In this document: one piece after another, positions 17,452 to 30,607 of the stretch | Position numbering within the stretch: position 1 is the first letter of the stretch | Layout of the letters: each line of letters starts with the position of its first letter | Source of the DNA: an uncultured Clostridia bacterium | Lineage (GTDB): Bacteria > Bacillota_I > Bacilli_A > RF39 > UBA660 | Length of the DNA: 32,000 nucleotides | Reading direction: 5' to 3' | Assembly (NCBI GenBank): GCA_947643225.1 | Contig: CANRVH010000006.1 | Span: 18,330-50,329, forward strand | The notes under the pieces: model-generated | What the model was told of the DNA's origin: nothing | What the model saw: only the letters and a program-made list of their open reading frames with translations | Database searches by the model: none | Made by a program: the position numbers and the translations under genes

Positions 17452-20121
17452 TTATGGAGTGAATGACTGTCCATTTACTGTGCAAGTAGGATTTCCCACT
17501 GTCCCAGGAGTTTTATTATTTCCTTTTTGATACCAACAGATGGCATTCGATTTATTACCTGCTAGATCTTCTGCATAATATGCTCTCCAATATTCTGATC
17601 CGCTTCCAAAGTATTTCAAATCACAAAGTGTACCACCTTCGAATCGCCAACCACTATTACACCATCCCTGTGAAGGACTATTTACCAAAGCATAAGCATA
17701 TGTAGTACCTAATCCTGAGGTTGCATCCCAATAAGAAAAGTAGAAACTTGTACCAATATTATGAGGTTGATAATTTGGTTGATGTCCAACTGCTGCAATT
17801 GGTGGAGTGGCATCTTTTTTAAATGAAGTACTTTGACATTTCCCTTCATTACCAGCTTCATCCTTAACATAACCATAAAAATTGGCACTTTTTGTATCAT
17901 TACTATAAGTCAATGATCTTTTATCATTATAGTTTTTTCTATTTGTAGTAGTTAGTCCCTTTTCAATTACTCCTCCTCCCTGATCATTAACACTTAATGT
18001 TCCTACAACGTTTTTTCTATACCAACCATTCTTTCCTTGTGGATTGTTATTAGCATTTAGACTAATACTACACGTTGGTTTTTTCGTATCATGTTTAACC
18101 GAAATATCACTCTTACTACAAGTTCTACAGTTTCCGACTGTATCACAAATTATTTGTCTTAGTGTACCACTTTTCTTAGTTACACTATTAGTTCCTTTAT
18201 ATGTTTTAACATTGTATGTATTTTTTTCACATTGACTTCCCTTATCTTTACATTTTAACTTTACAGTAACATTATTTTTTGTCCAATCATTATTTCCTAT
18301 CCACTGAACACATGTTGGTGCTTCACTATCTTGATAAATATTAATACCATCATATTTACAATCAACTGTATTTCCTGCATTATCTTGCATCTTTACTGAT
18401 ACTGTTGCTGTTTCTATAGTACCATTACTAGGCCTTTTATTTGTTAAAGTAGCTGTATAATTTGCATTTTTACATCCACTTGGTGCACTACAAGGTACAG
18501 TAATTTTCACTTGCTTATTTGTCCATGAAGTGTTTTCTCCTTTTAGCTTATTCCTTGGAGGACAAACTGGTCCTGATTTATCAACTTTAAATGGTTCGCT
18601 TTCACAGTATCCAATATTTCCTGCAGCATCTTTAACATAGCCATAATATTTTATTTCTTTTTGAGTGTTTGCATTATATACTACCTTGGTACTAGATCCA
18701 TAGGATTGAGAGTTTTTATTGGTATTCAAACTATATGTTAATCCATTACTATTCACTTGTCCTTTACTATCCTGCCCTGTTATGGTAGCCGTAACATCAC
18801 TCTTATAATAATCATTATTCCCTTTTGTGCCACTTAATTTGATTGTACATGTAGGATTTGTTTTATCTATTTGCACTTTTATTTTTGAGCATTCTGCATA
18901 ATTACCAGCTTGATCGTATACTCTTCCCGCTGATAATTCTGTATTGTATTCTTTATTAATTAAATTTCCAAAATTTTTTTGATTATTGCAACCACTTTCT
19001 TTGTCTTCACATATTGGCAATAGCATGATATTCTGATTTGTCCAATTGCTATTATAGTCTTTTTCATTTATAGATTCATCGTCACTTTTATATGTTCCTT
19101 TAGTTTGACATATTGGAGGAGTATTGTCTTGATAATATTTAATTCCTTTGGTTTCACAACTATTTCCATTTTGATCATACATTTTTACTTTTATTGTATA
19201 TTTTCCCGTTTGTTTTTCATTATAACTAATTGTTTTCTTGCCTAAAGCATTTCTAATTATTTGTTTATAACCGCTTCCATCCTGATCAATAAAGGCATCA
19301 TAGGTATACCCAGCACCTGTTACTTCTATATTGATATCGATTGCTCCATTTGTCCATGTTCCTTCTGATAATTTTTGACTTCCTTTTGTCGCTGTTATTT
19401 TTACTGATTTATCACAATTTAATGTATATTCTAAGGTATATGGTCCTCCTGATCCATGTCCTTTTTTTCCTATGGAATTATAAGCATATCCTTCAATATA
19501 AAATGTTCCTTTTTTATTTAATTTTATGGTAATTTTTTCTTTTTTATATTCTCTAAAATCAACTTTTTTGATCAAAATTTTTTTCTTATCTTTTGTTTCT
19601 TCATATACATTATAAGCATAACTTACTATTTCATTTTTTTTATCTGTTATCTTCATTTCTACTGTAATATCTTTATCTTTTACTTTTCCACTACTTGGAT
19701 TGAAAGTAATTTCTGGTGTCGATTGATTTTCTTTTTTTGTGTTATCTGTAGCACATTTTCCACAATCTAAGTACCCTGCATAATAATAGTTACTTCCTGT
19801 TACCTTAGTTGCACAAACCTTACTATTTGTTGGGTTACACAAAGCTCCTTGGTAATCTTTCATTTGTTCTATATATTTACTATTTGTTAATGTAGATAAA
19901 TCAACGCAAGTTTCTGCTCCTATTTCGAGTGGTAGTAATGTTGTTCGATCATGGAAATAATCTCTTCCAGCTACAATCATCATATCTACTTGTGATGCAC
20001 AATAATCTTCATGACTTTTATTTAATGATCCTCCTACCCCTGCTACTACTGTTCCTGATAATACTCCAATAATTGTAATTACTGCAATTACTTCTATTAA
20101 CGTGAATCCTTTTTTATTCAT
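17452..20121 (-). CDS. giant modular type IV pilin/pseudopilin-like protein: prepilin N-terminus plus tandem Cys-containing Ig-like modules
   Basis: The N-terminus MNKKG/FTLIEVIAVITIIGVL is a class III (prepilin peptidase) signal with Glu at +5. The body contains at least 7 repeats of a module ending D-x-A/N-G-N...C...D...P-x-C (YDQNGNSCE..DNTPPIC; YDQAGNYAEC..DKTNPTC; KDAAGNIGYCE..DKSGPVC; QDNAGNTVDC..DSEAPTC; CDTVGNCRTC..DTKKPTC; KDEAGNEGKCQ..DATPPIA; EDLAGNKSNAIC). GGTGA Shine-Dalgarno upstream. Confidence 0.75.
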   Translation of the reverse strand: MNKKGFTLIEVIAVITIIGVLSGTVVAGVGGSLNKSHEDYCASQVDMMIVAGRDYFHDRTTLLPLEIGAETCVDLSTLTNSKYIEQMKDYQGALCNPTNSKVCATKVTGSNYYYAGYLDCGKCATDNTKKENQSTPEITFNPSSGKVKDKDITVEMKITDKKNEIVSYAYNVYEETKDKKKILIKKVDFREYKKEKITIKLNKKGTFYIEGYAYNSIGKKGHGSGGPYTLEYTLNCDKSVKITATKGSQKLSEGTWTNGAIDINIEVTGAGYTYDAFIDQDGSGYKQIIRNALGKKTISYNEKQTGKYTIKVKMYDQNGNSCETKGIKYYQDNTPPICQTKGTYKSDDESINEKDYNSNWTNQNIMLLPICEDKESGCNNQKNFGNLINKEYNTELSAGRVYDQAGNYAECSKIKVQIDKTNPTCTIKLSGTKGNNDYYKSDVTATITGQDSKGQVNSNGLTYSLNTNKNSQSYGSSTKVVYNANTQKEIKYYGYVKDAAGNIGYCESEPFKVDKSGPVCPPRNKLKGENTSWTNKQVKITVPCSAPSGCKNANYTATLTNKRPSNGTIETATVSVKMQDNAGNTVDCKYDGINIYQDSEAPTCVQWIGNNDWTKNNVTVKLKCKDKGSQCEKNTYNVKTYKGTNSVTKKSGTLRQIICDTVGNCRTCSKSDISVKHDTKKPTCSISLNANNNPQGKNGWYRKNVVGTLSVNDQGGGVIEKGLTTTNRKNYNDKRSLTYSNDTKSANFYGYVKDEAGNEGKCQSTSFKKDATPPIAAVGHQPNYQPHNIGTSFYFSYWDATSGLGTTYAYALVNSPSQGWCNSGWRFEGGTLCDLKYFGSGSEYWRAYYAEDLAGNKSNAICWYQKGNNKTPGTVGNPTCTVNGQSFTP

Positions 20122-22209: not shown

Positions 22210-23118
22210 ATGAAAAGATTAGAAAAATGTCAAATTTGTCCTAGGGATTGTCTAGTTAATCGATCAAATGGTGAGATTGGATTATGTGGTGTTGATGATC
22301 AAGTAAAAGTTGCAAGAATTGCTCTTCATTATGGTGAGGAACCTCCTATTTCGGGAAAGAATGGTTCAGGTGCTATTTTCTTTTCTGGTTGTAATTTAAA
22401 GTGTATTTTTTGTCAAAATTACTCTATATCCTCTAAAAATTTTGGAAAAAATATAACAATTCAACAATTGGCAGATCAAATGATCAGATTGCAAAAAGAA
22501 CAAGCACATAATATCAATTTGGTTACCCCAACTCATTATATTCCTCAAATCATAGAGGCAATTAAGATGGCAAAGAAAAAAGGATTAAAAATTCCTATTA
22601 TTTATAACTCTAGTGGATATGAAAAAATTGAAAGTTTAAAATTATTGAGTGGACTTATTGATATTTATTTACCTGATTTAAAATATTATGATGATTTACT
22701 AGCCATGAAATATTCTAAGGCTCCTAATTATTTTGAAATTGCTACTCAAGCGATTCAAGAAATGTATAGGCAAGTTGGTTTTCCTCAATTTGATCAAGAG
22801 GGAATTTTAAAGAAGGGGATTATTGTTAGGCATTTGCTTTTACCAGAGTGTTTAGAAGACTCTAAAAAAATTATTCATTATCTTTATCAGACATATCAAG
22901 ATAAAATTTTTATTAGTGTAATGAATCAATATACTCCTTTGGAACAGGTTAAGAAAATAAAAGAATTAAATCATAAGGTGAAAAAGAAAGATTATGATTG
23001 TTTGATTCATTATGCTTATGATTTAAATATTCAAAATGCCTTTATTCAAGATATTTCCTCAGCAAATAAGGATTTTATTCCCAAATTTGATTTAACAGGG
23101 ATAAATAAAAAGTTCTGA
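22210..23118 (+). CDS. radical SAM protein, PflA/PflX-like activase family
   Basis: CNLKCIFCQNY radical-SAM triad preceded by an N-terminal Cys cluster (CQICPRDC...C). The TTG at 22198 in the ORF track is part of a GAGGTG Shine-Dalgarno (22199-22204) serving the ATG at 22210. Confidence 0.78.
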   Translation: MKRLEKCQICPRDCLVNRSNGEIGLCGVDDQVKVARIALHYGEEPPISGKNGSGAIFFSGCNLKCIFCQNYSISSKNFGKNITIQQLADQMIRLQKEQAHNINLVTPTHYIPQIIEAIKMAKKKGLKIPIIYNSSGYEKIESLKLLSGLIDIYLPDLKYYDDLLAMKYSKAPNYFEIATQAIQEMYRQVGFPQFDQEGILKKGIIVRHLLLPECLEDSKKIIHYLYQTYQDKIFISVMNQYTPLEQVKKIKELNHKVKKKDYDCLIHYAYDLNIQNAFIQDISSANKDFIPKFDLTGINKKF

Positions 23119-23132
23119 AAAATTTCAGAACT
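23111..23132. terminator. bidirectional hairpin terminator between convergent genes
   Basis: agttctgaaa (23111-23120) / tttcagaact (23123-23132), a perfect 10-nt inverted repeat. It is flanked by A-run and T-run sequence and overlaps both stop codons. Confidence 0.55.
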
Positions 23133-23370
23133 TTTCTATTTCTATCTTAACATATTTATTATCTCTTAAAGTGCTTGCTTCCTGAATTATAGTACGAATC
23201 GCTTGGATTACTCTGCCATCTTTTCCAATTACTTTTTTCATTTCTTTTTCGTTTATTTTTATTTCGATTTGAATTGTATGATCATCTATTATTTTTTCTT
23301 CTACTGAAATATTATCGACATCTTCTACTAGAGACTGAATAATAAATTCTGTTAATTCCTTTAAACTCAT
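23125..23370 (-). CDS. khpA: KH-domain RNA-binding protein (YlqC/KhpA family)
   Basis: 81 aa with the GKDGRVIQAIRTI GxxG KH motif. Immediately downstream of rpsP, as in most Bacillota. Confidence 0.85.
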   Translation of the reverse strand: MSLKELTEFIIQSLVEDVDNISVEEKIIDDHTIQIEIKINEKEMKKVIGKDGRVIQAIRTIIQEASTLRDNKYVKIEIEKF

Positions 23371-23372
23371 TT

Positions 23373-23648
23373 TTATTTTCCTTTTTTATTTTTTTCATCG
23401 GCAAATTTTTTCATAATTCCAGCTTTGCTAAATAAACTTCTAACTGTGTCTGTAGGTATTGCCCCTGTTCTTAACCATTTTAATGCTACTTCTTCATTAA
23501 TTTTTGTTTCTGTAGCATCACATGGATAATAATTTCCAATTAGTTCTAGATATTCTCCATCACGTCTAGCACGTGAATCTGTTGCAACAATTCTATAAAT
23601 TGGATGTCTTTTTGCACCCATTCTTGTTAATCTAATTTTAACTGCCAT
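23373..23648 (-). CDS. rpsP: 30S ribosomal protein S16
   Basis: [31 protein letters not shown]... is canonical S16. GGAGGAAAAAG Shine-Dalgarno upstream. Confidence 0.95.
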
Positions 23649-23678
23649 ACTTTTTCCTCCATTTCATTTACTTAGTTG

Positions 23679-23707
23679 ATTGTACCATGTTTATAATATG
23701 CTGTCAA
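23679..23707 (-). promoter_or_regulatory. sigmaA-type promoter of rpsP-khpA
   Basis: The minus strand reads TTGACA (23707-23702), a 17-nt spacer, then TACAAT (23684-23679), about 30 nt upstream of the rpsP ATG. The -35 is embedded in an 8-bp inverted repeat tgtcaaca/tgttgaca (23702-23723). Confidence 0.6.
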
Positions 23708-23737
23708 CATTTTTTTGTTGACATGTTTTGATTCTAT

Positions 23738-24970
23738 TTATCTTCTGCTCATATAATTCTCTTCCATATTTTGATTATGATATAAGTATAATTTCTGTAA
23801 ACTGTTTTGGTCAATATAAATTACTTTTCCCCCTGGAGGATTAATTTTTATATTGCCAAATACAATCCAAATAATATCTAACTTTTTCTTTGGCATATTT
23901 GATTTTCCATCGGTAAAAATAATTTTATTTTCCACCCTTCTAGTAAAAGAAGATACTGCAACGTTGAAATCCGTTCCCCCTCCACCGATAAAATTCATCT
24001 TATCTATATCTTTTTCGTTTCTTATTTCTGTAAACCCATAAAATTCATCGTCAAAACAACCAACTTTAATTTTTGAATTTGGCAATATATTTTTACATTC
24101 TCCTAAGAAATTTCTTAATAATGTTTTCGATATTGAACCACTAGTATCAAGAAGTATTTCAGTCTCAGGTGTTGGAAATTCTTCCAGATATGGATTTAAA
24201 ACCCCATTTTCTATTGAAGCATTTCGATAGGAAAAATCAATATTATATTGAGTGGTTTCCTTTAATAATCTTCTCCAATCAATTAATTGTTTTGACGTAA
24301 CTATATTTGTTATTCTTATTTGTTGTTTTTCTGCTCCATAGGATTTTCTTGCTAATTCTTCCATTAATTCATTTGCTTTTCTTTTTTTTTCGATCTTATT
24401 TTGTTTAAATGTATCTATTTCCCCCATTTCTGTTAATTTTTGAATTGTATCTTCTTTCCAGTTAGTAGATTGTGATTGATCCTTATTTAAAGTTTCTTCA
24501 CTTTGTTTATTTTTTCTTTCTACTACTTTATCCCATAGACTATGATCATCTTGCCCTTGTCTATTATTTTTTGGTTGTTCTATTTCTTTATTTAATAATT
24601 TTTCATACATTTCTTCTGCTGTATAATTAATTGCTATGGGAATATCAATAACTCCTTTTATTAATTTTAATCCATCATTTTTTAAAAGGGCATTAATTAC
24701 TGAGTCTGTTGCAATATTCCAAAGCTCTTGATTTTTTCCTTCACTTCTTAAAATATGATTAAACGCAATATGGCAAATTTCATGTACAAAGGTAAAAACT
24801 TGTTCCTCATCGTCTAATTTGCTTAGAAAATTTTTATTATAATATATGTTGTCTCCATCTGTACTTGCCGTTTTGGTATTGTTATCTTCTATTATGTTAG
24901 TTGAGGCTACTATGCTTCCAAAAAGGGGATATTTAATTAATAATTTTCTTTTTATTGTTTCAATATTCAT
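23738..24970 (-). CDS. putative zinc metallopeptidase-vWA protein (DUF2201/COG3864 type, MoxR partner)
   Basis: The N-terminal domain carries HExxH (FVHEICHIAFNH) and ATDSVIN. The C-terminal domain has the vWA MIDAS motif DxSxS (LLDTSGSIS) and GGGGTDF. The ATG lies 1 nt after the stop of the preceding small ORF. Confidence 0.8.
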   Translation of the reverse strand: MNIETIKRKLLIKYPLFGSIVASTNIIEDNNTKTASTDGDNIYYNKNFLSKLDDEEQVFTFVHEICHIAFNHILRSEGKNQELWNIATDSVINALLKNDGLKLIKGVIDIPIAINYTAEEMYEKLLNKEIEQPKNNRQGQDDHSLWDKVVERKNKQSEETLNKDQSQSTNWKEDTIQKLTEMGEIDTFKQNKIEKKRKANELMEELARKSYGAEKQQIRITNIVTSKQLIDWRRLLKETTQYNIDFSYRNASIENGVLNPYLEEFPTPETEILLDTSGSISKTLLRNFLGECKNILPNSKIKVGCFDDEFYGFTEIRNEKDIDKMNFIGGGGTDFNVAVSSFTRRVENKIIFTDGKSNMPKKKLDIIWIVFGNIKINPPGGKVIYIDQNSLQKLYLYHNQNMEENYMSRR

Positions 24971-24971
24971 G

Positions 24972-25382
24972 CTATTTTCTTTCTATATGAGCAACTAGCG
25001 AATATATTTCTTCAGTAATGTTTTTTTCCTTTAAATTAGAGCATGTTACAATAATTATACAATTTTCTGGTAAGTGAAATGTACTTATTTTTTTATATTT
25101 TAAGATTTCAATAAATTTTTTTTGTTCTGTTTCATCGATTTTATTTATATCTTTAATTACTAAGATTGGTATTCGATTTTTACTTTTTTGTTGTAATTCT
25201 TCGTACCACTTGGGAGCCTTAAAGTCTATTCCTTCATAATGACCATTAAGATACGAATCATCGCAATCTGAAGATATTACTACCTCATCTTTTATTAATT
25301 CAGTTGGAGTATTTTCAAGTAATATGGGAGAGACGTTTATCTTTATATATTCATTTAATATTTCTAATTGTTCTTTTATCAT
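24972..25382 (-). CDS. small hypothetical protein, translationally coupled between the AAA+ gene and the vWA gene
   Basis: I prefer the ATG at 25380-25382 (MIKEQLEILNEY...), which forms an ATGA overlap with the TGA stop of the upstream gene. AAGGAGG lies 9 nt upstream. The longer ORF-track start at 25463 would overlap the AAA+ gene by 85 nt. No family recognised. Confidence 0.6.
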   Translation of the reverse strand: MIKEQLEILNEYIKINVSPILLENTPTELIKDEVVISSDCDDSYLNGHYEGIDFKAPKWYEELQQKSKNRIPILVIKDINKIDETEQKKFIEILKYKKISTFHLPENCIIIVTCSNLKEKNITEEIYSLVAHIERK

Positions 25383-27412
25383 ACTCTCATTCCTCCTTGT
25401 TGTTTTTCTTCCATAATCAGTTCTGCTAATTTTTCTAATCTTTCTTCGTCTTGGTGAGCCCAAATACTTTCAAAAGTAGCACAAGGTTCTGCACCTAGTT
25501 TCTTTACAAAACTTCTAACTACTATTAAATTTTGGTCATCAACAGAGGATAATCCAACTGCAGTGGCGAATTTTTCTGCTATATTCATTCTTCTTATTTC
25601 TTCTTCACTATATTCTCCATTTAGCACATCTTCTATTGTAATTACCTTTTGTTTTACAAAGGCAACAAAATCTCTTGTTAATTCTTCACCAATCAAGGCT
25701 CTTAACATTTCTGGTTTTTTTGTTTGATATAAAACTTTAGAAGCCATTTCCCACTTTCTTGGATCAGCATTGGGTTTTTCTCCGTTAAAAGGAGTTCTTA
25801 ACACGTCTTCTCCTGTGTAAGATCTATATGCAATGTAAGCATAAATCGATGGGTGAATTGTTAACATCACTTCTGGAGTAGTATATTTTAATCTTTCATA
25901 TTGACCTTTTGGTGTTGTAGCCCATTTTAACCAATTATCTACTGTTGTATTAATATAAACATGAGCAAATCGATTAAATAGGGGCTCTGCCATTGTGTTT
26001 GCTGCTAAACTATCATTTAGGTCATTTCCTGCTGCAACTATTCTTGCGTTTTCTGGTAATTTCCAAATACCATTTACTTCTTTATCTAAAACAATATTAA
26101 ATGCCATTCCTTGAATTGATGGGAGTGCATTAGTTATTTCGTCAAAAAAGACAATATGAATTTTATCAGGTTCTTCTTCACATTTTTTCTGTACTTTTTG
26201 TAACCAAGTAGGTGGAATATCTAACATATGACCAGGTTTTACTTCAACACTTTCATAAGTATATTCTATAACTTCTTTTTTTGTTTGGGTTTCCTGGTCT
26301 ATTTCTAATTTTATGTGTGGTACTTTTCTTTGTTCATATATTGGTTGTACATAAACACTTTTACCATTTAAACTATCTGGAGTAGCATTTCTTAGATAAA
26401 TGATTTCACAATCTGGGTCATATTGTTTTACTCTAGCACTTTTTCCTTCACTGCTTCTTCCATGCAAAAGAACTGGAATATCACTTACTAGTGCTCCTCT
26501 TATAATTTCTTCTTCTGATACAAAATTAAAGTTAAATTGATAAGGATTTTGTTTTCTTTTTATTAACCTTTGTTCTTCTAAAGTAATTTCTTCTTTGGTT
26601 TGAGAATAGGTTAATCCTTCTTCAATTTCTTTTGCAAAAGGACCATTCATAAATTGATGCATATCTGTTTTTGAAAAGTCGCCTTTATAATCCCTTTTAT
26701 TTTTAAATTGCACTCCTGAAAATAATAATTTTTTCGAAATTGCTATATCTTTTTTTTCATCTATTATCCATTTTATTGGTTCTACTTTAATCCAAATAAC
26801 ATCATTTTCTTTTATTATCTTATTATTAGATAGTTTCTTTGATACACAATTTTTATCTGCTATTATACGAATATATTTTTTTCCATTATATTGATATTCT
26901 AAATGTTCTCTTTTTTGAAATGTTTTATCATATGCATCAATCTCTCTTGAATCTGTTGTGTAACTTTTTCCTGTCAATTCTAAACTGTTTTCTCTATATT
27001 TTCTTTCTAATTGTTCTGCTATAACATCATGTTCAACTGTTTGTGGGTATTCCCCGTATTCTATCTCTAACTCTCTTTTTTTCCCTCTCACTCCGTTCGA
27101 GGAGAAGGAAGAGATTGATGAGAACGTTAAAGCTGGGCGAGCACCTCCAAAACGGCTTAGAACAATGCTGCTATCACTACCACCATTCCAGCCCACAACG
27201 CGGGCGTCATTATCACCATCATCAGTTTTTGTCCACCAATATCCTGTACGATCCTTTAAATCGTTACTGTCTTCCAAATAACAGTCTGAGACATATGCTC
27301 CTAATACAATTGCAAAGTCAGTAAGAGCAGCACGTGTACCTATTTTTTTAAATATTTCTAATTGATTTTGACCAAAGATTTGATCCTCGGCTAAAAACGT
27401 AAAGTTATTCAT
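25379..27412 (-). CDS. DGR target protein: N-terminal variable lectin-like module fused to a MoxR-type AAA+ ATPase
   Basis: The N-terminus has GYWWTKTDDGDNDARVVGWNGGSDSSIVLSRFGGARPAL (the YWW...G.RPAL module of Firmicute lectin-like domains), and this stretch contains the VR. The central and C-terminal parts carry Walker A LLHGRSSEGKSA, Walker B IHIVFFDEITNA, then LPSIQGMAFNIVLDKEV, RIVAAGND and EPLFNRFAHV, which fit the MoxR/AAA_5 pattern. No signal peptide or TM helix seen. The ATG at 27410-27412 has AGGTGA 5 nt upstream. The ORF track uses the GTG at 27421. Confidence 0.8.
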   Translation of the reverse strand: MNNFTFLAEDQIFGQNQLEIFKKIGTRAALTDFAIVLGAYVSDCYLEDSNDLKDRTGYWWTKTDDGDNDARVVGWNGGSDSSIVLSRFGGARPALTFSSISSFSSNGVRGKKRELEIEYGEYPQTVEHDVIAEQLERKYRENSLELTGKSYTTDSREIDAYDKTFQKREHLEYQYNGKKYIRIIADKNCVSKKLSNNKIIKENDVIWIKVEPIKWIIDEKKDIAISKKLLFSGVQFKNKRDYKGDFSKTDMHQFMNGPFAKEIEEGLTYSQTKEEITLEEQRLIKRKQNPYQFNFNFVSEEEIIRGALVSDIPVLLHGRSSEGKSARVKQYDPDCEIIYLRNATPDSLNGKSVYVQPIYEQRKVPHIKLEIDQETQTKKEVIEYTYESVEVKPGHMLDIPPTWLQKVQKKCEEEPDKIHIVFFDEITNALPSIQGMAFNIVLDKEVNGIWKLPENARIVAAGNDLNDSLAANTMAEPLFNRFAHVYINTTVDNWLKWATTPKGQYERLKYTTPEVMLTIHPSIYAYIAYRSYTGEDVLRTPFNGEKPNADPRKWEMASKVLYQTKKPEMLRALIGEELTRDFVAFVKQKVITIEDVLNGEYSEEEIRRMNIAEKFATAVGLSSVDDQNLIVVRSFVKKLGAEPCATFESIWAHQDEERLEKLAELIMEEKQQGGMRV
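27133..27206 (-). repeat. DGR variable repeat (VR), inside the target gene (ORF-track codons 72-97)
   Basis: 62/74 identical to 28742-28815. There are 12 mismatches, 11 of them where the TR has A on the minus strand. See finding 1. Confidence 0.88.
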
Positions 27413-27465
27413 ATTTGTCACCTGTAATTATTATATCATAAAATGGAATATTATGGAAAATAAAA

Positions 27466-28491
27466 TTAATTTTTTGTGGGATTCGTCCAATTCTTTAGCT
27501 TTCTACTTTCCTTAGTATTTTTTATGTGATGATAAAAAGCATTTTTTCTAATATAGATATATTCATCATCTATAATGTTCATCTTTTTTAATTTAGATAA
27601 ATTTTTCAAGTGTTGATATAGTCTTCTTTTAGAAGATGATCTAAGTTTTTTTATTATCTTTCCACTTTTCAATAAAATATGACGATATCCTAAAAAATCA
27701 ATACCATTTTCGACTTTTCCTATTTGAGTTTTATTATTTAATGATAAATGCAATTTATTTTGACATATATTCCCTATTTCTTTTTGGCATACTTGTAAAA
27801 ATTTTTTATCTCTATGAATTAAAATCATATCATCCATATATCTAATATATCCTTTTACTCTTAATTTTTCTTTAATATATCTATCTACTAAATTCAAATA
27901 TAATAACGCAAACCATTGACTAGACTGATTTCCTAATGGTAAACCTATTTTACAGTGATTAGGTTGTTCTTTTATTATTTTTTCTATAAACCATGTCTCT
28001 TCTTCAGAAAATTCAATTTTTTTCAATAATTGAAGTAAGATGTTATGATCTATACTAGAAAAATATTTACTAATATCACACTTTAGAAAATATATTTCAT
28101 TGTTTTTTTGTTTATTATATTCTATTCTTAAAAATTTTTCTAATCTTTTTATTGCAAAATCAGTTCCTTTTTCTTTTCTACAAGCAGCATTATCGTAAAT
28201 TAACTTTTTTTCTATTTTTGGTTTTAAGGACACTTCACAGAAACATCTTATGATTACACGATCTTTATAAGGCAATGCTTCGATTATTCTTTTTTTTGGT
28301 TCATATATAGAAAACACTTTATATTTGTTAAATTTGTATTTTTTCGTTATGATTTCTTTTCTTATATTATGTAAATTGTATGATAAATTTGTTTCAAATC
28401 TAATTACTTCTCCTTTTTGTTGCTTTGATTTTCGACAATTTTTATGTGCTTCATATAAATTTTCAAAAGTGAAAATTTCTGATAATTTCAT
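27466..28491 (-). CDS. DGR-type reverse transcriptase
   Basis: 341 aa with the RT motifs IYEPKKRIIEALPYKDRVI, FLKCDISKYFSSIDH, GLPLGNQSSQWFALLYLN (the [ILV]GxxxSQ motif that separates DGR RTs from retron and group II RTs), RYMDDMILI (YMDD) and FLGYR. AGGGAG Shine-Dalgarno. The TR lies 250 nt upstream on the same strand. Confidence 0.88.
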   Translation of the reverse strand: MKLSEIFTFENLYEAHKNCRKSKQQKGEVIRFETNLSYNLHNIRKEIITKKYKFNKYKVFSIYEPKKRIIEALPYKDRVIIRCFCEVSLKPKIEKKLIYDNAACRKEKGTDFAIKRLEKFLRIEYNKQKNNEIYFLKCDISKYFSSIDHNILLQLLKKIEFSEEETWFIEKIIKEQPNHCKIGLPLGNQSSQWFALLYLNLVDRYIKEKLRVKGYIRYMDDMILIHRDKKFLQVCQKEIGNICQNKLHLSLNNKTQIGKVENGIDFLGYRHILLKSGKIIKKLRSSSKRRLYQHLKNLSKLKKMNIIDDEYIYIRKNAFYHHIKNTKESRKLKNWTNPTKN

Positions 28492-28893
28492 TATATTCTC
28501 CCTAAATTATAAGTTTTTATTGATTTATTTCATCATAAGAAAAGACACCTCTTATAACCTTCAAAGTTTTTTAACGTTGAAAAGTGTAAGTGTCTATATT
28601 TTTCCATCGCACTAATTTCTTTTAGCGATTAGAAAAGAGAAAGGTTCCTTCACTTTATCGTATAGATATGTTTTTCTTAAAACATATTTTTCTAACGCGT
28701 TTTTTAGATTCACATTTAGTAAAATCTCTTCAAAAGTGAATCTGGGCGAGCACCTCCAGAACGGTTTTGAACATTGTTGTTATTACTATTACCATTCTAG
28801 TTCACAACGCGGGCGAACGAGGAGAGGGGCTCAACACAAACAGGCCTAAAAATTAACCTTTTCCCTTAATTAAAAGCCTTTCAGCTTAAAATC
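28492..28893 (-). ncRNA. DGR RNA region: non-coding leader, TR, and a 250-nt structured spacer between TR and RT
   Basis: No credible minus-strand ORF between the avd stop (28894) and the RT start (28491). Contains the TR plus inverted repeats at 28706-28713/28736-28743 and 28666-28674/28679-28687. The true RNA ends are unknown. Confidence 0.55.
28742..28815 (-). repeat. DGR template repeat (TR)
   Basis: Minus-strand sequence CGCCCGCGTTGTG AAC TAG AAT GGT AAT AGT AAT AAC AAC AAT GTT CAA AAC CGT TCT GGAGGTGCTCGCCCAG. It is AAY-rich, has a stop in the VR frame, is intergenic, and sits between the avd-like gene and the RT. Confidence 0.88.
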
Positions 28894-29478
28894 CTAATTT
28901 CTTTTTTTAAATCTTTCATCATCACTTTTTTTCCAAGCTGTTGTTAGATTTATTGCTTCTGCTATTTGTTTGGCAATCTGTTTATATTGTTTTTTTAATA
29001 TACATCCTGAACTTTCTGCTACCATGGAAATATATCCTAGTAATTTTAGTTTTATAATTGCTTCTTTTTGATATTCTTCCCTTTTTTGTTTATGCTCTAT
29101 GCTATCTACTCTAATGAAATTGGCTTGTAATAAGTCTTCTAATATTTCTAAACAGTAGTTTTGCATTCTGTTAACAAAAACTCCTCTAAACTTTTTGGGA
29201 GATTTTTCTGTTATTGTGATCATATAAGCTCCTAATTTTTTCACTACGGTTATTACAATTAGTTCGCTTGAATTAAAAGGGATTTTTGATATTATTTCCA
29301 ATTCTTGATCTTCTTCTTTTGCTAATTCTTTTAATTTGGATATATTTATTTTTTTATGATTAGCTATTGCTATCGATTTTTTTACTTCAATTTTATCTTC
29401 AATGTTATTAATTGTATTTTCAAATTGTTCTATTTTTTTTGGAATTTTTAAATTATGATCTCTACTAACTTGAATCAT
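28894..29478 (-). CDS. avd: Avd-like accessory variability determinant (four-helix-bundle family) with an N-terminal extension
   Basis: The C-terminal ~130 aa (SPKKFRGVFVNRMQNYCLEILEDLLQANF...REEYQKEAIIKLKLLGYISMVAESSGCILKKQYKQIAKQIAEAINLTTAWKKS, basic tail) fits the Avd / 23S-rRNA-IVS four-helix-bundle pattern, including the terminal x-x-x-W-x-K motif. Located immediately upstream of the TR. At 194 aa it is longer than typical Avd. Confidence 0.65.
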   Translation of the reverse strand: MIQVSRDHNLKIPKKIEQFENTINNIEDKIEVKKSIAIANHKKINISKLKELAKEEDQELEIISKIPFNSSELIVITVVKKLGAYMITITEKSPKKFRGVFVNRMQNYCLEILEDLLQANFIRVDSIEHKQKREEYQKEAIIKLKLLGYISMVAESSGCILKKQYKQIAKQIAEAINLTTAWKKSDDERFKKRN

Positions 29479-29532
29479 TTAGCACCTTCTAACTAATCAT
29501 ACTTTTTGGAGAAAATATTTCTCTCTTTGTTT

Positions 29533-29561
29533 ATTCTAGTATAGACAAGTTTTTTCGTCAA
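29533..29561 (-). promoter_or_regulatory. candidate sigmaA-type promoter of the avd-TR-RT-target operon
   Basis: The minus strand reads TTGACG (29561-29556), a 17-nt spacer, then TAGAAT (29538-29533), about 55 nt upstream of the avd ATG (Shine-Dalgarno GAAGGTG). Confidence 0.5.
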
Positions 29562-29607
29562 GAATTATTTTCAGCTGAGTTAAATTACTTCTTTCATATA
29601 AAAAGAA

Positions 29608-30135
29608 TTATATAGTTTTATCTTCTTCTATATAATTCTCTTTTACTTCCTCTTCAATTTTATCTCCTACATCATCTAATATCTCGTCCCAAGGATCTTC
29701 CTCTTCACTTGTTTCTATTTTTACTTTTTCGTCGCCAACAAGCTCAATTCCTAATTCTTTTTCTATTGTATAAACAATATCATTTCCTTCGATATCCACT
29801 TTTATACAACTTGGTTGTTTTAGACTTCTAACAATAATTTCTTCATTTACAACATCTCTATTATTTTTAATTGTTACTATCTCGTTGTAATTATCTGTTT
29901 GCTTAATCACATCAGTTTTTGTATCATTATCATATGAATACCAAATATTAACATCATAATTTCCAGTAATATTTACTTTTTCACCGACTTTTTGTCCTTG
30001 AAAGTTATGATTGATTACCCAGCAACCAAGAATTGTTGATGGAGTATTTTCTACAGTTTTTTTATTTGTAGTAGTAAAAGTTTTTTTGCCTTTACCAATG
30101 ACCGTTTTCGTTACAATTTCACGATAATTTGCCAC
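29608..30135 (-). CDS. cotE: outer spore coat morphogenetic protein CotE
   Basis: MANYREIVTKTVIGKGKK...STILGCWVINHNF...NITGNYDVNIWYSYDNDTKTDV... with an acidic C-terminal tail closely parallels Bacillus CotE (YREIITKAVV..SSILGGWIINH..YDINVWYSY). It lies next to ymcA and miaB, as in Bacillus. Confidence 0.82.
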   Translation of the reverse strand: MANYREIVTKTVIGKGKKTFTTTNKKTVENTPSTILGCWVINHNFQGQKVGEKVNITGNYDVNIWYSYDNDTKTDVIKQTDNYNEIVTIKNNRDVVNEEIIVRSLKQPSCIKVDIEGNDIVYTIEKELGIELVGDEKVKIETSEEEDPWDEILDDVGDKIEEEVKENYIEEDKTI

Positions 30136-30256
30136 TATAATCCCTCCTCTAGTTTAGTTTATGCTTTAGAGAGGGAAAACTACACAAAAAAAGTTATTAA
30201 ATATTATTTATAAGATGTGGGTATATTTTTTAATCTTTACTTTTGGTAGTTATTCA

Positions 30257-30607
30257 TTATTCAGATTCGAAAGATGTTACTTGTTTAAAATAGTCATTCA
30301 ATTCCTCTTTGATTATTTCTATTTGAATATTGACTTTTTCTAAATAATAATTATACAAAGTATATAATTTATGATTATTTAATTCTTCTACTTTTTGATC
30401 AAGTTCTTTCTTTATTAATTGATCATGATTATTTCTAATATATTTTTTTTGTATTTTTTTTACTTCTTCTATTAAATCTAATAATTGTTGATCTTTTTTC
30501 ATTTTTTCTTTTAATTCATTACATTTTATATATTCTTCGCTATTTTTTATATAATTAATTATATCCATCAAGGACTTTTTGCTTTCTTTACTTAGATAAC
30601 TTTCCAT
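30257..30607 (-). CDS. YmcA/YlbF-family (RicA-like) regulatory protein
   Basis: 116-aa helical protein lying between miaB and cotE, the position of ymcA in Bacillus. The call rests mainly on synteny and helical, charged composition. Its start overlaps the miaB stop region by 20 nt. Confidence 0.55.
   Translation of the reverse strand: MESYLSKESKKSLMDIINYIKNSEEYIKCNELKEKMKKDQQLLDLIEEVKKIQKKYIRNNHDQLIKKELDQKVEELNNHKLYTLYNYYLEKVNIQIEIIKEELNDYFKQVTSFESE

What the first reader, a model, noticed from the sequence alone, without database searches (positions are those of the whole stretch)
23738..27421. The DGR diversifies the N-terminal sensor module of an apparently cytoplasmic MoxR AAA+ ATPase, operonic with a metallopeptidase-vWA protein
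Known DGR targets usually carry the VR at the extreme C-terminus of secreted, surface or phage receptor-binding proteins. Here the VR covers codons about 72-97 of a 680-aa protein with no visible signal peptide or TM helix. The rest of that protein is a MoxR/AAA_5-type ATPase (Walker A GRSSEGKS, Walker B VFFDE, DEITNALPSIQGMAFNIVLDKEV, RIVAAGN, LFNRF). It is coupled by an ATGA overlap to a 136-aa unknown protein. One nt further on begins an HExxH metallopeptidase-vWA (MIDAS DTSGS) protein of the DUF2201 type, the canonical MoxR partner. The hypervariable residues sit at the C-terminal end of a YWW...GGARPAL lectin-like module, as in ordinary DGR ligand-binding domains, but that module is fused upstream of an NTPase. 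My inference is a hypervariable intracellular ligand sensor that gates an AAA+ remodeller and a vWA-tethered protease. That would be a diversifying, NTP-dependent conflict or anti-phage surveillance system, or alternatively a tunable regulatory switch. To my knowledge this DGR + MoxR + vWA-peptidase combination has not been characterised experimentally.
Basis: partly seen in the sequence, partly recalled or inferred. Interest (0 to 1): 0.95.

Follow-up and report, generated by a model that had tools for sequence, protein, structure and literature searches.

The report
Retroelement-diversified sensor on AAA+ ATPase
A gut Bacilli chromosome carries a retroelement that rewrites about a dozen codons in the front-end binding module of a cytoplasmic ATP-driven motor protein partnered with a protease; this is probably a programmable intracellular recognition machine, a concept already proposed for other bacteria, but in an undescribed architecture and family.

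Summary
All genes lie on the minus strand: Avd (29478-28894), TR (28815-28739), RT (28491-27466), then a 677-aa target (27412-25379), a 136-aa ORF and a DUF2201 zinc-peptidase/vWA protein. TR and VR (27206-27130) differ at 13 positions, 12 of them TR adenines (P=3e-6). The ATPase half is MoxR/AAA_5-like only by indirect evidence: weak hits in all 33 homologues, above-threshold AAA_5/AAA_3 hits in distant relatives, and AAA+-only weak fold matches. The "lectin" module matches only the C-terminal half of DUF6273, and a confident model has no fold match. The 136-aa ORF is a degenerate fragment of the ATPase core. The cassette occurs in 337 species-level genomes, mostly gut Bacilli. Of 57 informative loci, 18 have an intact adjacent RT (16 with a detected TR), 9 have RT remnants and 30 have none, and RT co-diverges with the target. 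Near-identical relatives vary almost only in the VR. The ATPase plus DUF2201 core also occurs, without a sensor, in lytic phages. DGR+MoxR+vWA systems are already described computationally, with the variable domain at the C-terminus of the vWA protein. This is a new variant of a known kind; its function remains inferred.

The parts
28894..29478 (-). Avd-like DGR accessory protein (194 aa)
   Evidence: phrog_3206 'Avd protein of DGR' 2.8e-17. NCBIfam DivGenRetAVD 2.1e-7, below its cut-off. Pfam bAvd 2e-3. Found in the same position in 16-18 related loci.
28739..28815 (-). Template repeat (TR), 77 nt, in the Avd-RT intergenic region; 8 AAY codons and an in-frame TAG
   Evidence: Local alignment and adenine-restricted scan. 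Codon table.
28492..28738 (-). TR-to-RT spacer, non-coding; presumed part of the DGR RNA
   Evidence: No ORF. No Rfam match. Its role is inferred from characterised DGRs, not tested here.
27466..28491 (-). DGR reverse transcriptase (341 aa), YMDD present
   Evidence: RVT_1 5.9e-16. PADLOC RT 2e-35. phrog_1423 9.8e-94. 41.5% identical to the RT of gut Phage nd12, a DGR phage.
25379..27412 (-). DGR target: 677-aa sensor-AAA+ fusion protein (coordinates include the stop codon)
   Evidence: ORF. More than 2,892 homologues. Alignment A1.
26618..27412 (-). N-terminal sensor module (aa 1-265). aa 1-100 resemble the C-terminal half of DUF6273; aa 110-265 form a beta-rich subdomain of unknown type
   Evidence: AF2 model with pLDDT 86 and pTM 0.85. 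DUF6273 and Fib_succ_major hits in homologues. No Foldseek match.
27130..27206 (-). Variable repeat (VR); variable codons 74-86 plus 94 in 677-aa numbering
   Evidence: The equivalent stretch is hypervariable in homologues.
25943..26515 (-). AAA+ ATPase core (aa 300-490): Walker A GRSSEGKS, Walker B FFDE, sensor-1 AAGN, Arg finger NRF
   Evidence: The motifs are invariant in 33 homologues. AAA_5 hits 33/33 weakly. phrog_1297 2.5e-36. Distant relatives score above the Pfam cut-offs for AAA_5 and AAA_3. The weak Foldseek hits are all AAA+ proteins.
25382..25942 (-). Family-specific C-terminal helical domain (aa 491-677), includes the PNADPRKWEMASK motif
   Evidence: Conserved in A1. Helical in the model, with pLDDT 70-89. 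Partly covered by the phage ATPase matches, which reach aa 642.
24972..25382 (-). 136-aa degenerate AAA+ fragment (Walker B-to-Arg-finger region, catalytic residues lost), ATGA-coupled to the target
   Evidence: BLASTP against target aa 401-485, E=3e-4. hhalign family against family, 94.7% probability, E=5.6e-8. Present directly downstream in at least 52 of 57 loci.
23738..24970 (-). 410-aa zincin metallopeptidase (aa 7-238, HEICH) plus vWA domain (aa 272-387, MIDAS DTSGS...T...D)
   Evidence: DUF2201_N 5.4e-29 and DUF2201 3.9e-14. phrog_1314 1.9e-64. HExxH and MIDAS residues at least 95% conserved in 69 homologues. Weak match to the minimal metallopeptidase MJ1213.
29533..29561 (-). Promoter-like site upstream of avd (TTGACG-17-TAGAAT)
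   Evidence: Consensus scan only; site counts are not above the shuffled expectation. Weak evidence.

Best explanation
This is a chromosomal cassette of six parts: avd, TR, RT, sensor-ATPase, mini-AAA and peptidase-vWA.

Diversification step. The DGR copies TR RNA into cDNA with errors at adenines and writes it over the VR. That rewrites about 12 codons (roughly 6e11 possible peptides) in the N-terminal ligand-binding module of a cytoplasmic MoxR-like AAA+ ATPase.

Proposed working mechanism (inferred):
- The ATPase forms a ring with the variable modules on its N-terminal face, the position where AAA+ unfoldases carry their substrate or adaptor domains.
- The vWA protein docks on the ring through its MIDAS site, as vWA partners of MoxR ATPases do. 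This brings an active zinc peptidase into place.
- The degenerate AAA+ fragment acts as a non-catalytic subunit or regulator.
- Binding of a matching ligand, most plausibly a protein of an invading phage or other mobile element, is coupled to ATP-driven remodelling and cleavage.

Shown computationally: the DGR anatomy and its adenine signature, intact catalytic motifs under purifying selection, translational coupling, VR-confined population variation in relatives, and long-term co-inheritance of RT and target. Inferred: ligand binding, ring assembly, vWA docking, proteolysis and the defensive role.
For: - TR/VR: 12 of 13 differences are at TR adenines, P=2.7e-6. Pooled over 16 related loci, 183 of 237 mismatches are at A, where A makes up 32% of the TR.
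- RT, Avd and TR are intact.
- Within a >=90%-identity cluster of 12 full-length relatives, 14 of the 23 variable columns lie in the VR. Twelve of those have 4-8 residue types.
- Walker A/B, sensor 1 and the Arg finger are invariant in 33 homologues. HExxH and MIDAS are at least 95% conserved in 69.
- AAA_5/AAA_3 relationship. Foldseek hits are only AAA+ proteins of the MCM, MoxR, dynein, PspF and related kinds.
- The model shows beta-hairpins at the helix-2 and pre-sensor-1 positions.
- No TM segment or signal peptide was seen.
- The cassette is conserved in at least 52 of 57 loci.
- RT and target identities correlate, r=0.64, Mantel 0/2000.
- Some genomes have two sensor modules, tandem paralogues or two loci.
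- Precedent for DGR-diversified sensors coupled to MoxR-vWA and other NTPases: PMC7159879 and PMC10907252.
Against: - There is no experimental datum for any member of the family, and no solved structure of any relative.
- PADLOC has no match for the target, the small ORF or the vWA protein.
- The flanks are housekeeping genes, not a recognisable defence island.
- The ATPase plus DUF2201 core is also carried by lytic phages such as N4-like nACB1 and jumbo PA5oct. A virion-assembly or processing role has been proposed for a MoxR plus metallopeptidase-vWA pair in group 2.2 jumbo phages.
- 30 of 57 loci have no RT nearby and 9 have only RT remnants, so hypervariation is dispensable for keeping the cassette.
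- The sensor module has no detectable structural relative, so ligand binding rests only on the DGR analogy.
- No VR variation could be shown for this particular species.
Confidence: 0.5

Rival explanations
1. A tunable chaperone or regulated-proteolysis module for the cell's own needs, not defence. On this reading the variable domain recruits changing endogenous or diet- and host-derived ligands to a MoxR-vWA chaperone, in line with the classical maturation and assembly roles of MoxR-vWA pairs.
For: The flanks are housekeeping genes. There is no PADLOC match. MoxR-vWA pairs are classically chaperone and co-chaperone (as described in PMC7159879). The cassette is retained without an RT in about half of the species.
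Against: Massive anticipatory diversification of a cytoplasmic binding site is hard to explain for a fixed endogenous client. VR sequences differ between near-identical strains, which fits arms-race targets. Paralogue expansion and repeated gain or loss across close relatives are typical of conflict genes.
Confidence: 0.2
2. A module derived from phages or mobile elements that works for the element rather than the host. Possible roles are assembly or processing, host takeover, or superinfection exclusion. It would have been inherited from the phage ATPase plus DUF2201 pair and a gut-phage DGR, and would now be resident in the chromosome.
For: phrog_1297 (2.5e-36) and phrog_1314 (1.9e-64) match strongly. 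The same gene order is found in phage nACB1. The RT is closest to gut-phage DGR RTs such as nd12. DUF6273 VR domains are typical of gut-phage receptor-binding proteins. The cassette sits at different chromosomal positions in different genomes.
Against: There are no phage structural, integrase or replication genes next to the cassette in the window or in the inspected loci. The phage ATPases lack the sensor module. The sensor fusion is confined to a coherent bacterial family in which RT and target co-diverge.
Confidence: 0.15
3. An ordinary extracellular or surface DGR target that leaves the cell by a non-classical route. The variable domain would bind external ligands, as in most cellular DGR targets.
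For: Most cellular DGR targets are membrane-anchored or secreted (PMC8144416). DUF6273 domains in phages bind external receptors.
Against: The maximum 19-residue hydropathy is 1.33, and the N-terminus is acidic and conserved as part of the fold. The protein is fused to an ATP-dependent AAA+ domain with intact motifs, which only makes sense in the cytoplasm. The partners also lack TM segments.
Confidence: 0.03
4. In this particular genome the DGR is a recently silenced fossil and the VR is frozen. This is compatible with any of the functional readings above.
For: RT loss and decay is frequent and recent in close relatives. The only other public copy of this protein has an identical VR. Two metagenome scans found no variants.
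Against: RT (341 aa, YMDD), Avd (194 aa) and TR are all full length compared with intact relatives. The VR differs from the TR at 12 adenines, including the obligatory TAG>TGG change, so at least one round of mutagenic homing has occurred.
Confidence: 0.12

Closest known systems
DGR-associated MoxR-vWA 'VMAP ternary' conflict systems of cyanobacteria and gammaproteobacteria (Kaur et al. 2020, PMC7159879; Dore et al. 2024, PMC10907252)
   Same: A DGR diversifies a putative intracellular binding domain that works with a MoxR-type AAA+ ATPase, a vWA protein and a peptidase. Both are proposed invader sensing with NTP-dependent thresholding.
   Different: In those systems the variable CLec/FGS domain sits at the C-terminus of the vWA protein, the MoxR is a separate protein, and a VMAP protein is the third component. 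The peptidases are trypsin- or caspase-like, and the hosts are multicellular bacteria. Here the variable module is at the N-terminus of the ATPase itself. The third component is a degenerate AAA+ fragment, the peptidase is a zincin fused to the vWA domain (DUF2201), no VMAP domain was detected, and the hosts are small-genome gut Bacilli.
CLec-AAA ATPase DGR targets of CPR bacteria (Paul et al. 2017, as summarised in PMC10907252, and the 'Midasin' UVR4 targets in PMC5758913)
   Same: The DGR variable domain is fused in one polypeptide to an AAA-type ATPase.
   Different: [quoted passage not shown] The RT clade and the phylum are also different. No DUF2201 partner is mentioned in the passages read. 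I did not compare the sequences directly.
Phage MoxR-like ATPase plus metallopeptidase-vWA pair (phrog_1297 plus phrog_1314; Iyer et al. 2021, PMC7824862)
   Same: Both the ATPase half and the DUF2201 protein are homologous (tblastn 9e-16; BLASTP 7e-34; PHROG 2.5e-36 and 1.9e-64). Phage nACB1 has the same gene order, with a small ORF of about 137 aa in between.
   Different: The phage ATPases are about 370 aa with no N-terminal sensor module, and no DGR was seen in the two phage loci inspected. The proposed role is virion assembly or processing. The phage small ORF is not detectably similar to the window's.
Tentaclins and other DUF6273 DGR targets of gut phages (PMC10743442; bioRxiv 10.1101/2024.10.15.618418)
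   Same: [quoted passage not shown] The RTs are related: nd12 is among the best phage hits at 41.5% identity.
   Different: Those are virion receptor-binding proteins with Ig-like domains downstream, and their full DUF6273 domain has a C-type lectin fold. Here only the C-terminal half of the DUF6273 profile matches. The rest of the module is a different beta-rich domain, and what follows is an ATPase.
Avs/STAND NTPase antiviral sensors
   Same: This is a functional analogy only: an NTPase coupled to a variable sensor domain and an effector (discussed in PMC10907252).
   Different: The NTPase clade differs (STAND rather than the helix-2-insert AAA+ clade). In those proteins the sensor is C-terminal and its diversity is germ-line encoded, not retroelement-generated.

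Membership tests
Diversity-generating retroelement (DGR) | TR/VR pair whose differences are almost all at TR adenines | tested here: met
   12 of 13 mismatches are at A, P=2.7e-6. The same holds in 16 related loci, 183 of 237.
Diversity-generating retroelement (DGR) | Reverse transcriptase with an intact catalytic motif next to the TR | tested here: met
   RVT_1 5.9e-16, PADLOC RT 2e-35, phrog_1423 9.8e-94. YMDD and the LGNQSSQ motif are present in the translation.
Diversity-generating retroelement (DGR) | Accessory variability determinant (Avd) | tested here: met
   phrog_3206 'Avd protein of DGR' 2.8e-17. NCBIfam DivGenRetAVD 2.1e-7 (31 bits, below the 80-bit cut-off). Pfam bAvd 2e-3.
Diversity-generating retroelement (DGR) | Ongoing mutagenic homing (VR variation within a population) | tested here: inconclusive
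   Clear in near-identical relatives. For this species there are only two records, with identical VRs, and two metagenome scans found nothing.
Diversity-generating retroelement (DGR) | VR carried on a C-type lectin fold | tested here: inconclusive
   Sequence matches cover only the C-terminal half of DUF6273 (profile positions 77-168). They are above the cut-off in P0001 and P0064 and below it in the window protein; Fib_succ_major hits 2 of 33 members. A confident model (pLDDT 86) has no significant Foldseek match in PDB or BFVD.
MoxR family of AAA+ ATPases | Sequence membership in Pfam AAA_3 or AAA_5 | tested here: inconclusive
   The window protein scores 12.7 bits for AAA_5 against a cut-off of 22. 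All 33 homologues hit weakly. Distant relatives found with the ATPase half score above the cut-off (AAA_5 up to 40.8 bits, AAA_3 up to 38.7). The phage homologue scores 25.6 bits for AAA_5. Membership is therefore by transitive homology only.
MoxR family of AAA+ ATPases | Intact Walker A, Walker B, sensor 1 and arginine finger | tested here: met
   GRSSEGKS, FFDE, AAGN and NRF are invariant across 33 homologues.
MoxR family of AAA+ ATPases | Helix-2 insert and pre-sensor-1 beta-hairpin (AAA+ clade 7 topology) | tested here: inconclusive
   The AF2 model has beta-hairpins at both positions (E351-399 and E445-451), but pLDDT there is only about 60-78. Foldseek hits (MCM, MoxR 2r44, dynein, PspF and others) have E>=0.013.
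MoxR family of AAA+ ATPases | Genomic pairing with a vWA protein that carries a MIDAS motif | tested here: met
   DUF2201 vWA with DxSxS...T...D, at least 95% conserved. It lies directly downstream in at least 52 of 57 loci.
MoxR family of AAA+ ATPases | Hexameric ATPase that physically binds its vWA partner | not testable with these tools
   Needs biochemistry or complex modelling, which was not available here.
VMAP ternary conflict system (Kaur et al. 2020) | [quoted passage not shown] | tested here: not met
   No VMAP family is hit by any of the three proteins at E<=0.1. The third gene is a degenerate AAA+ fragment.
VMAP ternary conflict system (Kaur et al. 2020) | Variable FGS/CLec effector fused C-terminally to the vWA component | tested here: not met
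   The vWA protein ends with the vWA domain. The VR is in the ATPase gene, and there is only one VR in the window.
Known anti-phage defence systems (PADLOC-DB v2) | Match of the core proteins to a catalogued defence family | tested here: not met
   No hit for the target, the small ORF or the vWA protein. Only the RT matches generic RT models.

The most novel reading that the evidence does not exclude
A retroelement-programmed, antibody-like recognition domain sits directly on an AAA+ unfoldase and steers a tethered zinc protease to arbitrary intracellular proteins. That would be an adaptive, targeted-proteolysis immunity of unicellular gut Bacilli, assembled from a phage ATPase-peptidase pair and a phage-type DGR. 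The sensor scaffold would not be a recognisable C-type lectin fold.
Probability: 0.25. Interest if true: 0.9.

Novelty: new variant of a known kind. Interest (0 to 1): 0.62.

Why it matters
If the mechanism holds, it extends DGR-diversified intracellular sensing in two directions. It moves from multicellular cyanobacteria and proteobacteria to abundant, streamlined, unicellular gut Bacilli (337 species-level genomes). It also moves from vWA-borne C-terminal lectin domains to a variable module mounted on the ATPase motor itself.

The system is compact, about 5.9 kb with five genes. It has natural DGR-plus, DGR-decayed and DGR-minus versions among near-identical strains, which is an unusually clean natural experiment on what hypervariation buys the cell.

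The shared ancestry with a widespread, uncharacterised ATPase plus DUF2201 pair of lytic phages means that solving one would probably explain the other. A ligand-programmable AAA+/protease would also be of interest for targeted protein degradation tools.

Tried and rejected
- PDB sequence searches with the target protein and with the family profile found no AAA+ or any other meaningful hit. Searches with the distant relative P0210 and the phage ATPase gave nothing or only marginal PspF and midasin hits.
- Foldseek on the full-length model (pLDDT 68) gave no hit at E<=1e-3. I used it only as a weak indication that the fold class is AAA+.
- Foldseek on the confident sensor-module model gave nothing significant against PDB or BFVD, so I do not call the module a C-type lectin fold.
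- I tested whether the sensor module is a circularly permuted DUF6273 (C-half followed by N-half). In homologues with two modules the DUF6273 profile maps only positions 77-168 onto the start of a module, and the preceding region does not match the N-terminal half. The idea is unsupported and was dropped.
- PADLOC and NCBIfam have no match for the three effector proteins.
- Rfam has no match in 23000-30300.
- The hairpin downstream of the VR is no better than shuffled sequence, z = -0.38. Promoter and terminator scans are not above expectation.
- An exact look-up of the window protein's contig found nothing on record.
- Two metagenome scans for VR variants of this species found no matches.
- The supplementary table of Wu et al. 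2018, which would name the three known N-terminal-VR DGRs, is not held.
- A literature search for DUF2201 found nothing relevant.

Full report
ANATOMY

All relevant genes lie on the minus strand in one tightly packed array:
- Avd-like protein, 29478..28894.
- A 402-nt non-coding gap that holds the template repeat.
- Reverse transcriptase, 28491..27466.
- After a 53-nt gap, the target, 27412..25379.
- A 136-aa ORF, 25382..24972, whose ATG overlaps the target's TGA (ATGA).
- One base further on, a 410-aa protein, 24970..23738.

The target most likely starts at ATG 27412, which has AGGTGA 5 nt upstream. That gives 677 aa, the length of the identical public protein P0121, rather than 680 aa from GTG 27421.

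The flanks are housekeeping genes of a spore-forming Bacillota. Upstream are CotE, YmcA/YlbF and MiaB. Downstream are ribosomal protein S16, KhpA, a radical-SAM protein, CdsA and RseP. G+C content is 24-32% throughout, with no compositional break at the cassette.

THE DGR IS REAL

TR (28815..28739) and VR (27206..27130) align without gaps over 77 nt with 13 mismatches. Twelve of these are at TR adenines (9 A>G, 2 A>T, 1 A>C), and all fall at codon positions 1 or 2. With 26 adenines in 77 positions, the chance of at least 12 of 13 mismatches falling on adenines is 2.7e-6. No second VR exists in the window.

The TR has eight AAY codons plus TAG, AGT, CAA and GAT. That makes 12 variable codons and roughly 6e11 possible peptides. 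Oddly, the TR carries an in-frame TAG where the VR has TGG (Trp75), so an unmutated copy would truncate the target.

Component support:
- The RT matches RVT_1 (5.9e-16), PADLOC RT (2e-35) and phrog_1423 (9.8e-94), and contains YMDD.
- The upstream ORF matches phrog_3206 'Avd protein of DGR' (2.8e-17), and more weakly NCBIfam DivGenRetAVD and Pfam bAvd.
- Among the RT's best phage relatives is the gut Phage nd12 (41.5% identity). Its DGR also diversifies an N-terminal DUF6273 module (PMC10743442).

THE TARGET PROTEIN

The ATPase half. Pfam does not give a significant AAA+ call for the window protein: AAA_5 scores 12.7 bits against a cut-off of 22, and Sigma54_activat has E=0.018. Neither the protein nor a 33-sequence profile finds any solved AAA+ by sequence. 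The assignment rests on converging indirect evidence:
- AAA_5 is hit weakly by all 33 aligned homologues and Sigma54_activat by 29.
- The ATPase half (aa 285-677) retrieves 3,809 representatives at 50% identity. Among its distant members, several score above the Pfam cut-offs for AAA_5 (up to 40.8 bits) and AAA_3, the MoxR model (up to 38.7 bits).
- It matches phrog_1297 'ATPase' at 2.5e-36. It also matches phage proteins, one annotated 'MoxR-like ATPase', which itself scores above the AAA_5 cut-off.
- The weak Foldseek matches of the full-length model are AAA+ proteins of several kinds: MCM, the MoxR-family 2r44, dynein, PspF, ORC, Hsp104 and BrxL.
- Walker A, Walker B, sensor-1 Asn and the Arg finger are invariant in the family.
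- The model shows beta-hairpins at the helix-2 and pre-sensor-1 positions.

I therefore accept 'MoxR-like AAA+ of the AAA_5 type' as a good working description. Strict family membership stays unproven.

The sensor module. Residues 1-275 fold confidently as one body when modelled with 97 homologues (pLDDT 86, pTM 0.85). That model has no significant structural match in PDB or BFVD (best E 0.1-0.2). At sequence level only residues about 1-100 resemble a known domain. They match the C-terminal half of DUF6273 (profile positions 77-168). The match is above the cut-off in homologues P0001 and P0064, and below it in the window protein. Two homologues also hit Fib_succ_major.

DUF6273 is a C-type-lectin-like DGR target domain of gut phages. 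What is shared is the VR-bearing segment (WW...G...RPAL). Residues 110-265 form a beta-rich subdomain of unknown type. My idea of a circular permutation found no support. I could not compute surface exposure of the variable residues.

A crude hydropathy scan shows no transmembrane segment and no signal-peptide-like N-terminus in the target, the small ORF or the vWA protein. No dedicated predictor was available.

THE PARTNERS

The 410-aa protein is a DUF2201_N zinc metallopeptidase (5.4e-29) fused to a DUF2201 vWA domain (3.9e-14). HExxH and the full MIDAS motif (DxSxS...T...D) are at least 95% conserved in 69 homologues. The HExxH region weakly matches the minimal metallopeptidase MJ1213.

The 136-aa 'unknown' ORF is a degenerate paralogue of the ATPase core. 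Its residues 55-133 align with target residues 399-485, which run from Walker B through sensor 1 to the Arg finger. BLASTP gives E=3e-4. A family-against-family hhalign comparison gives 94.7% probability and E=5.6e-8. It has no Walker A and has lost the catalytic Glu.

DISTRIBUTION AND LINK TO THE DGR

The target has more than 2,892 relatives in the 90%-identity catalogue. Relatives are encoded by 337 stretches in the species-representative genomes, nearly all uncultured animal- and human-gut Bacilli. The order target, small ORF, vWA is kept in at least 52 of 57 loci that have enough downstream sequence.

Of 57 loci with at least 2.5 kb of upstream sequence:
- 16 have a full RT, an Avd and a TR in the same layout.
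- 2 more have a full RT and an Avd, but my ungapped method did not call a TR.
- 9 have only RT fragments.
- 30 have no RT within 3 kb.

Pooled over the 16 intact loci, 183 of 237 TR/VR mismatches are at adenines, which make up 32% of the TR. DGR-positive, decayed and negative loci are interleaved on the target tree. Near-identical targets differ in DGR state. RT and target identities correlate (r=0.64, Mantel 0/2000). The DGR is therefore an old companion of this cassette that is often and recently lost.

Population-level variation is clear in relatives. In a >=90%-identity cluster of 12 full-length proteins, 14 of the 23 variable columns lie in the VR, and twelve of those have 4-8 residue types. 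For the species in the window I found no variants: the only other record has the same VR, and two metagenome scans were empty.

Some homologues carry two sensor modules in tandem. Some loci have tandem target paralogues. Coprobacillus sp. CAG:605 has two loci.

PHAGE CONNECTION

The ATPase half matches 306 phage records. In the N4-like Acinetobacter phage nACB1 the order is a 374-aa ATPase with no sensor, a 137-aa ORF, and a 404-aa DUF2201_N/DUF2201 protein. The last is homologous to the window's over its full length (E=7e-34). The jumbo phage PA5oct has the ATPase, with a DUF2201_N protein nearby. The vWA protein matches phrog_1314 at 1.9e-64; the PHROG label 'HNH endonuclease' looks wrong.

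Iyer et al. 2021 noted a MoxR plus metallopeptidase-vWA pair in jumbo phages and proposed a role in virion assembly and processing (PMC7824862). The bacterial cassette thus looks like this core with a DGR-diversified module added at the front of the ATPase.

COMPARISON WITH WHAT IS KNOWN

- DGR-diversified, NTPase-coupled putative intracellular sensors are already in the literature. Kaur et al. 2020 reported that about 80% of cyanobacterial and gammaproteobacterial VMAP-ternary MoxR-vWA systems are DGR-linked. Dore et al. 2024 extended this and proposed that the DGR targets are antigen sensors relaying through MoxR. They also cite CLec-AAA ATPase fusions as the commonest DGR target architecture in CPR bacteria.
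- In the VMAP ternary systems the variable lectin domain is at the C-terminus of the vWA protein, and the MoxR ATPase is a separate protein. For the CPR fusions the same paper places the variable domain C-terminal to the ATPase.
- N-terminal VRs are rare but known: 3 of 372 in Wu et al. 2018, and the tentaclins.
- Roux et al. 2021 found most cellular targets to be membrane-anchored or secreted. A term search of that paper returned no occurrence of AAA, ATPase or MoxR.
- No paper I could find describes this Bacilli family, the DUF2201 pairing with a DGR, or the degenerate AAA+ fragment.
- PADLOC does not list the three effector proteins.

MECHANISM AND VERDICT

The best-supported reading has two layers. 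The first is well supported: the DGR supplies variants of a ligand-binding surface on the N-terminal face of a MoxR-like ATPase. The second is inferred: the ATPase works with its MIDAS-bearing, zinc-peptidase-carrying vWA partner and a non-catalytic AAA+ fragment, and couples recognition of a changing intracellular ligand to ATP-driven remodelling and cleavage. The ligand is most plausibly a phage or mobile-element protein. The domain order resembles AAA+ unfoldases with N-terminal substrate domains, which is why I favour 'ligand-directed remodelling or proteolysis' over pure signalling.

The defensive role is inference, with a probability of about one half. The main rivals are a non-defensive tunable chaperone or regulator, and a phage-derived module that serves a mobile element.

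This is a new architectural variant, in a new host group, of a kind of system that has been predicted computationally but never tested experimentally.

Noticed in passing
window 28797-28799 (TR) and 27188-27190 (VR), minus strand: The TR has an in-frame TAG at the codon that is TGG (Trp75) in the VR. A faithful, unmutated TR copy would therefore truncate the target, and only A-mutated copies can give a full-length protein.
   Followed up: partly
hhalign gives 94.7% probability, E=5.6e-8.
   Followed up: yes
window 26228-26350 (target aa 355-395): A beta-hairpin insertion of about 40 aa lies between strand 2 and Walker B of the ATPase. It is present in the window protein and a minority of homologues, and absent from most.
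   Followed up: no
L082 4004-6787 (Acinetobacter phage nACB1); L083 3944-8816 (Pseudomonas phage PA5oct): Lytic phages carry the same ATPase plus DUF2201 peptidase-vWA core without the sensor module. In nACB1 the gene order is the same, including a 137-aa ORF in between. 306 phage records match the ATPase half.
   Followed up: partly
PHROGs family phrog_1314 (matched by window 23738-24970): The PHROG family is labelled 'HNH endonuclease', but it matches the DUF2201_N/DUF2201 peptidase-vWA protein over its full length (1.9e-64). This is probably a mislabel that propagates into phage annotations.
   Followed up: no
P0001, P0018, P0051, P0120; loci L038, L063, L081; L017 and L078: Some homologues have two tandem sensor modules before the ATPase. 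Some loci have tandem target paralogues. Coprobacillus sp. CAG:605 has two separate loci.
   Followed up: partly
L047 vs L037, L044 vs L055, L065 vs L067, L010 vs L006/L007: Nearly identical target genes differ in DGR state (intact, RT fragment or none). This indicates frequent, recent loss of the RT/Avd/TR part while the three-gene cassette is kept.
   Followed up: yes
L084 4283-5304: On the contig that carries P0074, the RT is called as two ORFs (135 and 185 aa). Yet the 90%-identity cluster of this protein shows the strongest VR hypervariation. This may be a frameshift, an assembly error or very recent RT inactivation.
   Followed up: no
window 17452-20121 (minus strand): An 889-aa protein has an N-terminal prepilin-type methylation motif (N_methyl, 2.3e-6) and a weak Ig-like domain hit. 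It is an unusually large pilin-like protein, with no VR copy in it.
   Followed up: no
window 28492-28738 (minus strand): The 247-nt TR-to-RT spacer has no Rfam match. It is the expected place for the DGR RNA priming element, and conservation across the 16 intact loci was not analysed.
   Followed up: no
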